Source: a virus (Duplodnaviria; Heunggongvirae; Uroviricota; Caudoviricetes). From it: a stretch of DNA of 64,000 nucleotides. Under the pieces are notes generated by a model. That model ran no database searches. It was given only the letters and a program-made list of their open reading frames with translations, and was not told the origin of the DNA. Positions 40,977 to 44,317 of the stretch are shown here, piece after piece (the stretch's first letter is position 1; every line of letters begins with the position of its first letter). The stretch spans positions 39,743 to 103,742 of IMG/VR virus record IMGVR_UViG_3300012943_000001. The stretch is one strand, 5' to 3'. The position numbers were made by a program, and so were the translations under genes.

Positions 40977-41032
40977 ATTTTTCTTTTGACAAAACCCAAA
41001 TTTCTGGGTAACTTATAGTAGTTCTTTTTAAT

Positions 41033-41372
41033 GGGCGTGTTCATGGATTCGCCTTCCGTTGTATTTGAAAGTGGCAAGCAGAAGAATGATTACCGTCTTC
41101 TTAAAAAACGTGGTCAAATTACAAACGACCTTTGTATGCTTAAAGCGTCCTAACCGACCTTTCGTCAACCCATAGAAGCCTGATAAGTGGAGTTTGACGT
41201 TAAACATTGGGCAAAACTATTTACGCTCAGGGTTGTTGGTACAACTAGAGAAAAACTGCCCAGAGTAGGTCGCTCGTTAGCGAAATGGGTTGTACTTAGA
41301 AACGAGACAAGCTTGTAGATGCTGTAGAAGAATACGGGAGATACAGGGGTTCGACTCCCCTCACGTCCACCA
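41033..41372 (+). ncRNA. ssrA: tmRNA (one-piece), predicted tag (A)TNDLCMLKAS*
   Basis: 5' GGGCGTG..GGATTCG pairs with 3' T-arm GGGGTTCGACTCCCC + CACGTCC-ACCA (G3.U70 pair); 340 nt; internal ORF 41121..41153 after CAAATT; upstream TTGACA-17-TAACTT. Confidence 0.92.
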
Positions 41373-42087: not shown

Positions 42088-42348
42088 ATGAAGTTATGGC
42101 TTACAAAATGTCATGGTGGTCGCTATATGGTTACGTTATTCAAACCAATTATTGCGAGGATTAGAGGAACGGAGTATATGGATGCGTTTGAAAAGGTGGG
42201 AGAACCAATTGCGGTAAAACATCTTTGTGAGCCGGGTATAAAATCCTTGCTCGGCCTGACGCTTGAACCGCTCACTCCAACGAAAATCGAGATAACGGCA
42301 AACGTTCTCGTCACTCTTGAAAAAGAAGAAGATGAAGATTCTAGTTGA
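42088..42348 (+). CDS. Hypothetical protein
   Basis: 86-aa ORF. Confidence 0.55.
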   Translation: MKLWLTKCHGGRYMVTLFKPIIARIRGTEYMDAFEKVGEPIAVKHLCEPGIKSLLGLTLEPLTPTKIEITANVLVTLEKEEDEDSS

Positions 42349-42372
42349 CATTCTTGAAACTCTAAGTATTAT
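42345..42372 (+). promoter_or_regulatory. Sigma70-like promoter for the ncRNA cassette / Ro60 locus
   Basis: TTGACA-16-TATTAT with nested TTGAAA 9 bp downstream of the -35. Confidence 0.6.
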
Positions 42373-42402
42373 AGGTATAGTTCTTTTAAGTTAATTTCAA
42401 AC

Positions 42403-42545
42403 GTCCCATTCTCGGGACTACAAGGAAGCAAGGTAGAGGCGTTCATCGTCATTGCTATATGAAACGCCAACCCCACTGTCGCAAGACAAGGGAGCAGAGC
42501 CCGTAAGGGCGATGACCAGTAATGTTCATCAAACTGTCCTCTCCA
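42403..42545 (+). ncRNA. Candidate novel structured RNA (multi-hairpin, pseudoknot-capable)
   Basis: GTCCC/GGGAC hairpin; GGCGTTCAT/ATGAAACGCC stem; TGTC-GCAA-GACA and GCCC-GTAA-GGGC GNRA hairpins; loop GTCATTGC complementary to GCGATGAC. Confidence 0.6.
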
Positions 42546-42563
42546 ATTTTCTCCTTAAAATTT

Positions 42564-42610
42564 GCCCGACCTTTTGTGGTTCGGAGGTTTGAATCCTCCA
42601 TCGGGCACCA
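42564..42610 (+). ncRNA. tRNA-like minihelix (acceptor stem + T arm + ACCA; no D or anticodon arm)
   Basis: GCCCGA..TCGGGC-ACCA acceptor stem and GGAGG-TTTGAAT-CCTCC T arm, joined by only about 12 nt. Confidence 0.7.
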
Positions 42611-42659
42611 TTTTGGCTTCATCTCTGACGTTTTTCATTTTTCGTCGGCATGAAGCTAA

Positions 42660-42680
42660 GGCCGTAACTATAACGGTCCT
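42660..42680 (+). ncRNA. Exact copy of 23S rRNA helix 69 (GGCCGTAACTATAACGGTCCT)
   Basis: Identical, as I recall the sequence, to E. coli 23S nt 1906-1926; no other rRNA sequence flanks it. Confidence 0.8.
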
Positions 42681-42682
42681 TT

Positions 42683-42723
42683 AAGGCGATTTCGTTTCAT
42701 CACGAGTCGCCTTTTTTATTTTT
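42683..42723 (+). terminator. Intrinsic terminator ending the ncRNA cassette, upstream of the Ro60 gene
   Basis: AAGGCGAT-TTCGT..ACGA-GTCGCCTT stem followed by TTTTTTATTTTT. Confidence 0.75.
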
Positions 42724-42754
42724 AACACTAACACATCAAGGAATAAGGAAACAT

Positions 42755-44317
42755 ATGGCAAAGTTTAATACAAAGTCAAATAGGGTTAAGGCAGCAAAGC
42801 AAGTACGTGCATCCAAGGGTGCGACTAAGAGCAAGGTTGTAATCAATCGTGCGGGCGGCTTTGCGTACTCAATGAAGGATAAGACGGAACTCGTCACGCT
42901 TCTTCTAACCTCATTCGTAGCAGACAGTTTCTACGAAAAGGGTCAGGATACGGCAAAGCGTGTCCAAGAGCTTATCGCAAAAATTCCAGACAAGCAATTC
43001 GTCGCAAAGGCTGCGGTCTACGCACGTAAGACGTTTGGTATGCGTTCCATCTCCCATCTTGTTGCGGGCTTGCTTGCACAAGAGGCATCCATCAAGGGTC
43101 AGGAGTGGACAAAGACCTTCTTCGACAAGGTAGTCCACCGTGTTGACGACATGTTGGAAATCATTTCCTTCACACAGAAGGACGGTAAGAAGCCATTGCC
43201 AAATTCCTTGAAGAAGGGTTTCCGCTCTGCGTTCGACCGTTTCGATACGTACCAATTGAGCAAGTACCAAGCTGACAACGCAGGTTTGAAGCTTGTAGAT
43301 TTGGTGAACATCATTCACCCAATCCCAACCGAGCGTAACAAGGACGGCTTGAACGCACTTATCAATGGTAAGTTGAAGAACCTTACAACGTCTCAAACGG
43401 CGTTGACTAACATTGGTCAGGTCGCCAAGAACGACGAAGAGAAGGCGGAGCTACGTAAGGACTATTGGAAGACCGTTCTAACCAATCGTAAGCTTGGCTA
43501 CACGGACCTAGTTCGTTCCCTTACGAAGATTGCCAAGGACGCACCAGATGCGGTTGATTTGGCGGTCGCAACGCTTACAGACGAAACTCTAATCAAGAAG
43601 AGTCTTGTAATGCCATACCAGCTTTATATCGCCATGAAGATGGTCGAGAAGGAGCTTGGAGCCACCTCTGAGTGCCGTAAGCTTTCTGCGGGCCTAGCAA
43701 AGGCCGTAGACATCTCATGCAACAACGTTCCTACCTTCGGTGGTAAGACCGTAGTTGTCGTTGACCGTTCAGGTTCTATGGATAGCCCGCTTTCCAATGG
43801 AAAGACGGACGTTCTTAAGATGTCTGAGGTAGGCACACTTATGGCGTTGTTCCTTGCACGTAACAACGACACTGACTTCGTTATCTTCGGAGACGACGCT
43901 AAGTATGTTCCTTACAATGCAAACGATTCCATCTTGACATCCGTCAAGACACTCCTTGGTTACAATCAGGGCTATGGTCACGCGGGCAACTACAACGTTG
44001 GTCACGGAACGAACTTCCACGCAATCTTCAAAACATTGAACAAGAAGTACGACCGCGTTATCATCTTCTCTGACATGCAGGGTTGGGCGGGCGGTCACTA
44101 CAGCCTAAATGGCGACATTGACTGGTACGCAAAGAAGTATGGTGCAAGGCCATTCTTGTATAGCCATGACCTTCGTGGTCACGGTTCTCTTCAAATTCCA
44201 GAAGAGAAGACATTCGTATCTGCCGGATTCTCTGAAAAGATTTTCGACGTTATGAAGCTTCTTGAGCAAGACAAGGAAGCGTTGGTCAACTCAATCGAAA
44301 AAGAGGTAACTCTTTAA
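42755..44317 (+). CDS. rsr: Ro60/Rsr TROVE-domain RNA-binding protein with vWA domain
   Basis: INRAGGFAY, AVYARKTFGMRS, FDTYQLSKY, MPYQLYIA, VVVDRSGSM (MIDAS), VIIFSDMQ, AGFSEKIF; strong SD AAGGA. Confidence 0.93.
   Translation: MAKFNTKSNRVKAAKQVRASKGATKSKVVINRAGGFAYSMKDKTELVTLLLTSFVADSFYEKGQDTAKRVQELIAKIPDKQFVAKAAVYARKTFGMRSISHLVAGLLAQEASIKGQEWTKTFFDKVVHRVDDMLEIISFTQKDGKKPLPNSLKKGFRSAFDRFDTYQLSKYQADNAGLKLVDLVNIIHPIPTERNKDGLNALINGKLKNLTTSQTALTNIGQVAKNDEEKAELRKDYWKTVLTNRKLGYTDLVRSLTKIAKDAPDAVDLAVATLTDETLIKKSLVMPYQLYIAMKMVEKELGATSECRKLSAGLAKAVDISCNNVPTFGGKTVVVVDRSGSMDSPLSNGKTDVLKMSEVGTLMALFLARNNDTDFVIFGDDAKYVPYNANDSILTSVKTLLGYNQGYGHAGNYNVGHGTNFHAIFKTLNKKYDRVIIFSDMQGWAGGHYSLNGDIDWYAKKYGARPFLYSHDLRGHGSLQIPEEKTFVSAGFSEKIFDVMKLLEQDKEALVNSIEKEVTL

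What the first reader, a model, noticed from the sequence alone, without database searches (positions are those of the whole stretch)
42403..42545. Unassigned multi-branched RNA with GNRA tetraloops and a possible pseudoknot
Seen: GTCCC/GGGAC hairpin; stem GGCGTTCAT(42438)/ATGAAACGCC whose loop GTCATTGC(42448) can form 8 bp with GCGATGAC(42509); hairpins TGTC-GCAA-GACA inside CCC/GGG and GCCC-GTAA-GGGC; possible CAGT/ACTG helix; and end-to-end pairing GGA..AGG.TAG with CTG.CCT.TCC. Pairing of the 5' and 3' ends is the general Y RNA architecture, but I could not find the YrlA T-loop or a clear Ro-binding motif. Inference: a new Y-like Ro60 partner or a new ribozyme/regulatory class.
Basis: seen in the sequence. 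Interest (0 to 1): 0.72.

Follow-up and report, generated by a model that had tools for sequence, protein, structure and literature searches.

The report
Phage Y RNA with novel body
A giant phage makes this small folded RNA just in front of its Ro60 ring-protein gene; it has the stem "handle" shared by Ro60 partner (Y) RNAs of many phages, but an undescribed four-hairpin body replaces the usual tRNA look-alike, so phage Y RNAs look modular.

Summary
The RNA is real, but its borders are 42422-42557 (+), not 42403-42545. In ten related jumbo-phage loci it folds the same way. A terminal two-part stem (P1, internal loop, P2, conserved single-stranded motif) closes a junction of four hairpins, two of them capped by GNRA loops. 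93% of cells pair, against 46-54% in slid controls, and ten pairs show compensatory changes. The same terminal "handle" flanks quite different bodies (short hairpins, tRNA-like domains) in 40 of 80 other viral Ro60 loci. All 51 copies lie on the Ro60 strand, 50 of them upstream of the gene. One such module hits Rfam YrlA below threshold. The phage's own tRNA island holds two more handle RNAs, one with a permuted tRNA-like body. I read the finding as a Y RNA paralogue: known handle, new clade-specific body. The proposed pseudoknot exists only in this phage and competes with a covarying helix. Nothing supports a ribozyme or riboswitch. Ro60 binding and expression are untested. Earlier notes of this scan describe handle-bearing Ro60-associated RNAs in other phages.

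The parts
42345..42372 (+). Sigma-70-type promoter (11 of 12 matches, 16-nt spacer); the likely start near 42379 falls on a motif also found at the tmRNA promoter
   Evidence: The -35 and -10 are conserved in homologous loci.
42403..42418 (+). Leader hairpin (5 bp) upstream of the Y RNA proper
   Evidence: Kept in L261, replaced by other hairpins in L002, L003 and L011, absent in five loci.
42422..42557 (+). Y RNA as a whole (handle plus four-hairpin body), 136 nt
   Evidence: Model R1 scores 130.8 bits here and 106-147 bits in nine homologues. Covariation.
42422..42428 (+). P1, 5' strand, with bulged A42426; pairs with 42551-42556
   Evidence: Invariant within the clade. Covaries across 47 distinct handle modules: 97.5% paired, all 6 pairs with double changes, on an alignment fitted to the model. 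Also.
42429..42431 (+). 5' side of the internal loop (CAA here, CGA in 8 of 10 clade members, UGA in more distant phages); the place of the CGAA motif in known bacterial and phage Y RNAs
   Evidence: Motif as described in PMC4201824 and PMC12135203.
42432..42440 (+). P2, 5' strand, with bulged U42434; pairs with 42536-42544
   Evidence: compensatory changes at two pairs within the clade; all P2 pairs change on both sides across modules.
42441..42448 (+). Conserved single-stranded junction motif after P2 (UUYCAUCG type in the clade, UUACUUCR in distant phages)
   Evidence: Seven of its eight positions are invariant in A3, the first varies. Present in all 17 plus 51 modules by the definition of the scan.
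42449..42462 (+). P3, a short A/U-rich hairpin, variable in sequence and length
   Evidence: Single-sequence folds of the homologues. The alignment is too loose for pair counts.
42466..42495 (+). P4, a long hairpin with an internal loop (2-bp base, CCC/GGG, then a 4-bp tip with a GCAA loop)
   Evidence: The base pairs change to U-A in L261 and to G-C in L262; the tips differ completely between phages but always pair.
42499..42510 (+). P5, a 4-bp hairpin with a GNRA loop (GUAA)
   Evidence: All four pairs show compensatory changes; the loop is GYAA in all ten.
42511..42530 (+). P6, a hairpin with a GNRA loop (GUAA) and a 1x1 internal mismatch
   Evidence: Compensatory changes in 3 of the 4 counted pairs. 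The loop is GUAA in nine loci and GAAA in L262.
42536..42556 (+). 3' half of the handle: P2 3' strand (42536-42544), 6-nt A/U loop (42545-42550), P1 3' strand (42551-42556)
42564..42610 (+). Separate tRNA-like minihelix: 6-7 bp acceptor stem, 5-bp T stem with a 7-nt T-type loop, encoded ACCA end
   Evidence: 89.6% paired against 29-50% slid; 9 of 12 pairs with double changes. Present in 9 of 10 clade loci. Not called by ARAGORN.
42685..42717 (+). Conserved hairpin plus U-run (terminator-like) 37 nt before the Ro60 start codon
   Evidence: The pattern scan found no + strand promoter match between it and the start codon.
42755..44317 (+). Ro60 (TROVE plus vWA) gene, the presumed protein partner
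   Evidence: Pfam TROVE E 3.9e-10. Full-length match to the Thermus phage Ro60 structure 9KOP/9L5Y, E 1.1e-16, and to Xenopus Ro60 1YVP. Sources name its relatives Ro ribonucleoprotein.

Best explanation
The element is a phage Y RNA, a non-coding partner of the Ro60 protein encoded 200 nt downstream.

Shown here. It is a conserved 136-nt RNA whose ends form a two-part stem: P1 with a bulged base, an asymmetric internal loop, P2, then a conserved single-stranded motif. This handle recurs in the same order upstream of Ro60 genes of many unrelated phages, around very different bodies. In this clade the body is a junction of four hairpins, two with GNRA loops.

Inferred. The RNA is transcribed from the promoter at 42345 as one precursor with the tRNA-like minihelix, further hairpins and, by read-through of the terminator-like hairpin, the Ro60 message. 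RNase P cutting at the 5' end of the minihelix (42564) would set the Y RNA 3' end. Ro60 binds the handle at its internal loop, where known bacterial and phage Y RNAs carry the CGAA motif. The folded body then tethers or blocks some other factor, as the tRNA-like body of YrlA and the loop of Deinococcus Y RNA tether PNPase.

The phage has at least three handle RNAs with different bodies, so Ro60 would be given several alternative adaptors.
For: Structure. RNAalifold on an unfitted MAFFT alignment finds P1, P2, P4, P5 and P6, with 15 pairs showing double changes. My structure gives 93.2% paired cells against 46-54% when slid, 10 pairs with double changes, and 0 of 500 shuffles as good. Single-sequence folds of the ten loci recur.

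Handle shared across bodies. There are 17 modules in 12 loci, with own-strand P2 duplexes of -8.9 against -5.1 kcal/mol for cross-pairs. There are 51 modules in 40 of 80 IMG/VR Ro60 loci, none on the opposite strand, 50 of 51 upstream of Ro60. Model R1 gives 106-147 bits for the clade and at most 34 bits elsewhere, through the handle only; 45 of the 46 weaker hits are on the Ro60 strand. All handle pairs covary on the fitted alignment.

Link to known Y RNAs. L260 737-865, which has the same handle, matches Rfam YrlA end to end at 45 bits, E 1.2e-7, with the stems aligned. Published phage and bacterial Y RNAs lie upstream of Ro60 and carry CGAA in an internal loop between two stems.

Partner gene. 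It is a full-length Ro60.

Paralogues. The phage's tRNA island holds two more handle RNAs.

Precedent for processing. M. smegmatis YrlA and YrlB come from one precursor upstream of rsr, and YrlA is cut by RNase P.
Against: The strict published motif GNCGAAN0-1G is not met, and the window's own copy has CAA where most relatives have CGA. Rfam YrlA gives no hit on the window at E up to 10, nor on the tRNA-like handle RNA of the same genome at E up to 1. P1 and most of P2 are invariant within the clade, so their pairing rests on the wider, model-fitted comparison. The role of the body is unknown.
Confidence: 0.8

Rival explanations
1. It is a cis-acting leader of the Ro60 mRNA. The structured RNA stays attached to the message, and Ro60 (or another factor) binds it to control read-through of the terminator-like hairpin or access to the ribosome-binding site. 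This would be feedback control rather than a free Y RNA.
For: The pattern scan found no + strand promoter match in the 37 nt between the hairpin plus U-run and the Ro60 start, so Ro60 probably depends on read-through from 42345. The P1 3' strand is pyrimidine-rich and complementary to the purine-rich ribosome-binding site of Ro60. This can coexist with the main reading.
Against: The RNA shows no complementarity to the terminator beyond shuffles in any of ten loci. About 125 nt of other modules, including a minihelix that looks like an RNase P site, separate it from the hairpin. Handle RNAs also occur 81 kb from Ro60 in the tRNA island and as five tandem copies in L260, which does not fit a leader.
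Confidence: 0.1
2. It is a stable structured RNA that works without Ro60. For example, it could be a decoy or mimic that occupies a host RNA-binding enzyme, co-located with Ro60 only because both belong to a translation and RNA-maintenance island.
For: Neighbouring modules are mimics: a tRNA-like minihelix and an exact 21-nt copy of 23S rRNA helix 69. The phage carries 52 tRNA genes, a tmRNA and a CCA-adding-type enzyme.
Against: The body shows no significant match to E. coli 16S, 23S or 5S rRNA; the best is a 10-mer at E 1.4. The handle tracks Ro60 genes tightly in strand and position.
Confidence: 0.07
3. It is a new self-cleaving ribozyme or a ligand-sensing riboswitch.
For: It has a multi-helix junction with GNRA loops and conserved junction nucleotides.
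Against: There is no Rfam match. There is no expression platform: no pairing with the terminator. The proposed pseudoknot is not conserved. The most conserved parts are the handle shared with RNAs that have unrelated bodies.
Confidence: 0.03

Closest known systems
YrlA (Y RNA-like A; Rfam RF02553; Chen et al. 2014, PMC4201824; Wang et al. 2018, 10.1101/312249)
   Same: It is encoded next to Ro60 on the same strand. The 5' and 3' ends form a two-part stem with an internal loop, which is the presumed Ro60 site. It is processed from a precursor with other Y RNAs in M. smegmatis. A related phage module with the same handle aligns end to end with RF02553.
   Different: There is no tRNA-like domain between the stem strands; four hairpins with GNRA loops stand there instead. 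The tRNA-like element is a separate minihelix outside the stem. The loop motif is AG plus CAA/CGA/UGA rather than GNCGAAN0-1G. RF02553 gives no hit on the window.
Yrl1 and Yrl2 of Thermus phage phiLo, bound by its Ro60 (PMC12135203; PDB 9KOP, 9L5Y)
   Same: These are phage-encoded RNAs upstream of a phage Ro60 gene, with a 5'-3' stem flanking an internal bulge that carries the CGAA-type motif. The phiLo protein is the closest solved relative of the window's Ro60.
   Different: As read, those RNAs were picked by the CGAA motif and single-sequence folding, as stem-bulge-stem RNAs. I did not compare their sequences with this handle.
Metazoan Y RNAs (Rfam RF00019) and Deinococcus Yrn1
   Same: They share the general plan: terminal stem with a bulged helix for Ro60, and a variable distal module that recruits other factors (PNPase in Deinococcus). 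One genome holds several paralogues with different distal modules.
   Different: There is no sequence similarity. The conserved metazoan helix motif is absent, and the distal part here is a multi-helix junction rather than a pyrimidine-rich loop.
YrlB and Yrn2-type hairpin Y RNAs (PMC4201824)
   Same: They are second Y RNAs of the same locus that lack a full tRNA-like domain.
   Different: Those are simple long hairpins with a small loop. The short-bodied handle modules of other phages (11-21 nt inserts) fit that type; this RNA does not.

Membership tests
Y RNA in the broad sense (Ro60-bound ncRNA) | Physically bound and stabilised by Ro60 | not testable with these tools
Y RNA in the broad sense (Ro60-bound ncRNA) | 5' and 3' ends pair into a long stem interrupted by a bulge or internal loop | tested here: met
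   P1, loop and P2 have covariation within the clade and across 47 distinct modules (fitted alignment).
Y RNA in the broad sense (Ro60-bound ncRNA) | In bacteria and phages: encoded close to Ro60 on the same strand | tested here: met
   It ends 198 nt upstream of the Ro60 start. The same position holds in all ten clade loci. 50 of 51 handle modules in 80 viral loci are upstream, and none is antisense.
Bacterial and phage Y RNAs (YrlA, YrlB, Yrl1/2) | GNCGAAN0-1G / CGAA motif near the 5' end in the loop of the stem | tested here: inconclusive
   The loop holds CGA in 8 of 10 clade members, CAA in the window and L261, and UGA or UAA in distant phages. The full published consensus is not matched.
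YrlA (RF02553) | tRNA-like domain (T arm, closed acceptor-like stem, D arm) between the strands of the stem | tested here: not met
   The body is P3-P6 with no T-loop or D-arm motif. The T-loop minihelix lies outside the stem.
YrlA (RF02553) | Score at or above Rfam's gathering cut-off (69 bits) | tested here: not met
   No hit at E up to 10 on 42300-42760. The related L260 module scores 45 bits.
Phage Ro60-associated handle RNAs (operational family defined here) | P1 - bulged base - AG/CU - 3-nt/6-nt internal loop - P2 - UUNCNUCR junction motif | tested here: met
   The scan written for this signature recovers the window's RNA and every clade member. R1 hits other phages through these parts only.
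Self-cleaving ribozymes and riboswitches in Rfam 15 | Match to a curated covariance model | tested here: not met
   only chance-level hits (E above 1) to unrelated families.

The most novel reading that the evidence does not exclude
Phage Ro60 works as a programmable platform. One conserved handle docks onto Ro60, and interchangeable, independently folded bodies aim the particle at different targets of the translation apparatus. Those bodies include this GNRA-stabilised four-hairpin junction, a permuted tRNA mimic and a plain hairpin, all within one phage. The four-hairpin body would then be a new, compact protein- or ribosome-binding RNA domain, possibly held together by tetraloop-receptor contacts. 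The only clade member with a GAAA loop in P6 (L262) is also the only one whose P4 internal loop resembles the 11-nt GAAA receptor. This is one case, read by eye, and I treat it as a lead only.
Probability: 0.25. Interest if true: 0.75.

Novelty: new variant of a known kind. Interest (0 to 1): 0.55.

Why it matters
What the variable half of a Y RNA does is the open question of the Ro60 field; only PNPase tethering and tRNA mimicry are documented. This locus shows that a phage Y RNA can carry a large, well-folded body that is not tRNA-like and is conserved by covariation in a clade of roughly 200-kb phages. It also shows that one phage can hold three handle RNAs with different bodies. That gives a concrete, testable set of adaptors: express Ro60 with each RNA and ask what each body pulls down. 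The handle signature, which Rfam's YrlA model largely misses, is also a practical way to annotate Y RNAs in phage genomes.

Tried and rejected
- Rfam, whole window and local permissive scan: only the tmRNA, nothing for this RNA.
- BLAST of the locus against GenBank phages and of the RNA cassette against E. coli genomes: no match.
- The search for related loci with the single Ro60 protein in IMG/VR: none. The alignment query worked.
- Exact-pattern scans: the strict 5' motif found nothing in IMG/VR. A 3' motif gave one spurious locus, L008. The degenerate 5' motif in metagenome, viral and genome collections gave almost only chance hits; one real locus, L092, was recovered.
- One contig look-up (P0023) returned no DNA.
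- Pseudoknot between the P3 loop and the P6 5' strand: window-specific.
- Antiterminator pairing with the downstream hairpin: none beyond shuffles.
- rRNA mimicry by the body: no significant match to an E. coli rrn operon.
- RF02553 on the tRNA-like handle RNA of the same genome: no hit.
- RF02553 at gathering score on 20 viral Ro60 loci: no hit, only tRNA-model hits.
- RtcB in the phage genome: absent.
The analysis was redone from coordinates and short motifs.

Full report
**Context.** The window is part of a complete 205-kb phage record with direct terminal repeats. Around the finding, all on the + strand, lie:
- a tmRNA (41033-41372, Rfam 87.9 bits);
- an Asp/Arg-hydroxylase-family gene and a small ORF;
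- a strong sigma-70-type promoter at 42345-42372;
- about 380 nt without a credible ORF;
- a 520-aa Ro60 gene at 42755-44317.

The Ro60 call rests on three results. Pfam TROVE scores E 3.9e-10. There is a full-length match to the solved Ro60 of Thermus phage phiLo and a match to Xenopus Ro60. Sources name its relatives "60 kDa SS-A/Ro ribonucleoprotein". Elsewhere the genome carries 52 tRNA genes and a CCA-adding-type nucleotidyltransferase, and it has no RtcB.

I fetched loci encoding Ro60 proteins 57-76% identical to the window's and found one more by pattern scan (L092). All ten loci, the window included, have the same non-coding cassette in front of Ro60. A locus with a 61%-identical Ro60 (L010) carries only a short version of the RNA.

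The conserved block runs from 42422 to 42557.

**Structure.** RNAalifold on an unfitted MAFFT alignment (A3) predicts the terminal stems and three hairpins, with 15 pairs kept through changes on both sides. For the structure I propose:
- 93.2% of cells pair, against 46-54% when the partners are slid;
- ten pairs have compensatory changes;
- no shuffle out of 500 reaches the observed values;
- independent single-sequence folds of the ten RNAs return the same architecture.

The parts are:
- P1: 42422-28 with 42551-56, bulged A.
- Internal loop: CAA on the 5' side, AAUUUU on the 3' side.
- P2: 42432-40 with 42536-44, bulged U.
- A conserved single-stranded octamer, seven of its eight positions invariant (42441-48).
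- P3: a short A/U hairpin.
- P4: a long hairpin with an internal loop and a GCAA tip in the window.
- P5: 4 bp with a GUAA loop.
- P6: a GUAA loop.
- A conserved A-rich return strand.

The two GNRA loops are kept in all ten loci while their stems change completely.

It is absent in eight of the nine homologues, marginal in one (L007), and it uses the 5' strand of P6. The long stem at 42438 competes with P2 and with the base of P4, both of which covary.

**What it is.** Two more distant Ro60 loci were decisive (L259 at 53% and L260 at 50% protein identity). Upstream of Ro60 they carry two and five tandem RNAs. Each is closed by the same terminal module: a variable P1, one bulged base, an invariant AG/CU step, a 3-nt/6-nt internal loop, a variable P2, and the octamer motif.

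A scan written only from short motifs and duplex stability recovers 17 such modules in 12 loci. Cognate P2 strands are far more complementary than non-cognate ones (-8.9 against -5.1 kcal/mol). The bodies enclosed by this handle range from 14 to 95 nt.
- One (L260 737-865) is a permuted tRNA-like domain. It matches Rfam YrlA end to end at 45 bits (E 1.2e-7, below the 69-bit cut-off), with Rfam's two stems aligned to P1 and P2.
- Another (L259 298-429) encloses a complete cloverleaf that scores 50 bits on the tRNA model.

I then took 80 IMG/VR loci encoding Ro60 relatives of 39-48% identity. The same scan finds 51 modules in 40 loci. None is on the opposite strand, and 50 of 51 are upstream of Ro60.

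A covariance model of the window's clade (R1) scores 106-147 bits on the ten members and at most 34 bits elsewhere. Those weaker hits come through the handle only, and 45 of 46 are on the Ro60 strand. On that fitted alignment every handle pair covaries.

So the handle is a widespread, Ro60-linked element, and the four-hairpin body is specific to this clade. In the phage's own genome R1 finds two more handle RNAs inside the tRNA island, 81 kb away. One has a T arm, a closed acceptor-like hairpin and a D-like arm in permuted order. The other has a short body. Rfam YrlA does not recognise the first.

**Comparison with the literature.**
- Chen et al. (PMC4201824) found YrlA-type RNAs next to Ro60 in 254 bacteria and 22 phages. 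They are defined by a tRNA-like domain and a 5' GNCGAAN0-1G motif. The paper also describes hairpin-type second Y RNAs, and shows that M. smegmatis YrlA and YrlB come from one precursor upstream of rsr and that YrlA is cut by RNase P.
- The phiLo study (PMC12135203) showed a phage Ro60 binding two upstream RNAs, each with a 5'-3' stem flanking a bulge that contains CGAA.

The present handle has the same plan, and most clade members have CGA in the loop. The window itself has CAA, together with a compensatory change in the neighbouring pair. I therefore file the RNA as a Y RNA in the broad sense and not as YrlA: the defining tRNA-like domain was tested and is absent.

**How it probably works.** These steps are inferred. 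Transcription starts near 42379. The precursor contains the leader, the Y RNA, a tRNA-like minihelix, two further hairpins and a conserved hairpin plus U-run. The pattern scan found no + strand promoter match before the Ro60 start, so Ro60 is probably made by read-through.

The minihelix (42564-42610) has a covarying acceptor stem and T arm and an encoded ACCA end. RNase P cleavage at its 5' end would release the Y RNA with a short A/U tail. Ro60 would bind the handle, and the body would recruit or occlude another factor. What that factor is cannot be told from sequence.

Two alternatives were checked here. The body has no significant similarity to rRNA. It shows no pairing with the terminator beyond chance, which speaks against a riboswitch-type leader.

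**Earlier notes of this scan**, read after I had reached my own reading, describe the cassette on this window, the helix-69 copy, and handle-bearing RNAs beside Ro60-like genes in other phages. I confirmed the helix-69 copy myself. I treat the rest as agreement, not as evidence.

**Limits.**
- No expression or binding data could be obtained.
- P1 and most of P2 do not vary within the clade.
- The wider covariation counts come from a model-fitted alignment.
- Only ten clade loci were available.
- The tetraloop-receptor idea rests on a single sequence (L262).

Noticed in passing
window 42564-42610: tRNA-like minihelix directly after the Y RNA: acceptor stem, T arm with a 7-nt T-type loop, discriminator A and an encoded CCA. 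It covaries strongly in nine of ten clade loci, and L011 lacks it. It looks like an RNase P/CCA-enzyme substrate or a tmRNA-like tRNA domain.
   Followed up: partly
window 42660-42680; L261 1128-1146; L003 2880-2895: There is an exact 21-nt copy of E. coli 23S rRNA 1906-1926 (helix 69) in the cassette, and a 19-nt near-copy in L261. In L003 the same variable slot holds an exact 16-nt copy of 23S 241-256. The slot downstream of the minihelix seems to hold different rRNA look-alikes in different phages.
   Followed up: partly
window 42685-42717: The terminator-like hairpin before Ro60 is conserved in sequence, loop included, across phages whose Ro60 proteins are only 57-76% identical. Its stem shows compensatory changes. 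In most relatives its 5' strand contains GGCGAA, close to the published Y RNA motif, and its loop repeats the UUUCAU of the handle's junction motif. It may be more than a terminator.
   Followed up: partly
G000:C1:163467-163599 and 166372-166443 (outside the window): There are two more RNAs with the same handle inside the phage's 52-gene tRNA island. One has a permuted tRNA-like body and one a short body. Rfam YrlA misses the first.
   Followed up: partly
window 40986-41033 and 42345-42390: The tmRNA and the Y RNA cassette have similar promoters. The same 8-nt motif (AGTTCTTT) lies at the predicted start, and homologous loci keep it. It could be a shared start or leader signal for the phage's stable RNAs.
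   Followed up: no
L259 298-429; L260 506-1105: In L259 a complete cloverleaf tRNA (50 bits, odd anticodon call) sits inside a Y handle. L260 has five handle modules in tandem before Ro60, with five different bodies.
   Followed up: partly
L294 1272-1338, L307 921-982: In these two IMG/VR Ro60 loci the tRNA model hits lie inside handle modules in normal, not permuted, order and lack the top of the acceptor stem or score weakly. Partial tRNA-model hits in L301 (1376-1442) and L332 (1408-1467) lie upstream of Ro60 but outside the modules that the motif scan called. Ro60 genes also often adjoin phage tRNA arrays.
   Followed up: no
L262 1746-1815: L262 is the only clade member with a GAAA loop in P6. 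It is also the only one whose P4 internal loop reads like a variant of the 11-nt GAAA tetraloop receptor. This hints at tertiary docking of P6 on P4.
   Followed up: no
window 42455-42622 (- strand): A 55-codon ORF is listed antisense to the RNA. Hairpin indels of 1, 2 and 4 nt and the compensatory substitution pattern in homologues argue that it is not a gene.
   Followed up: partly
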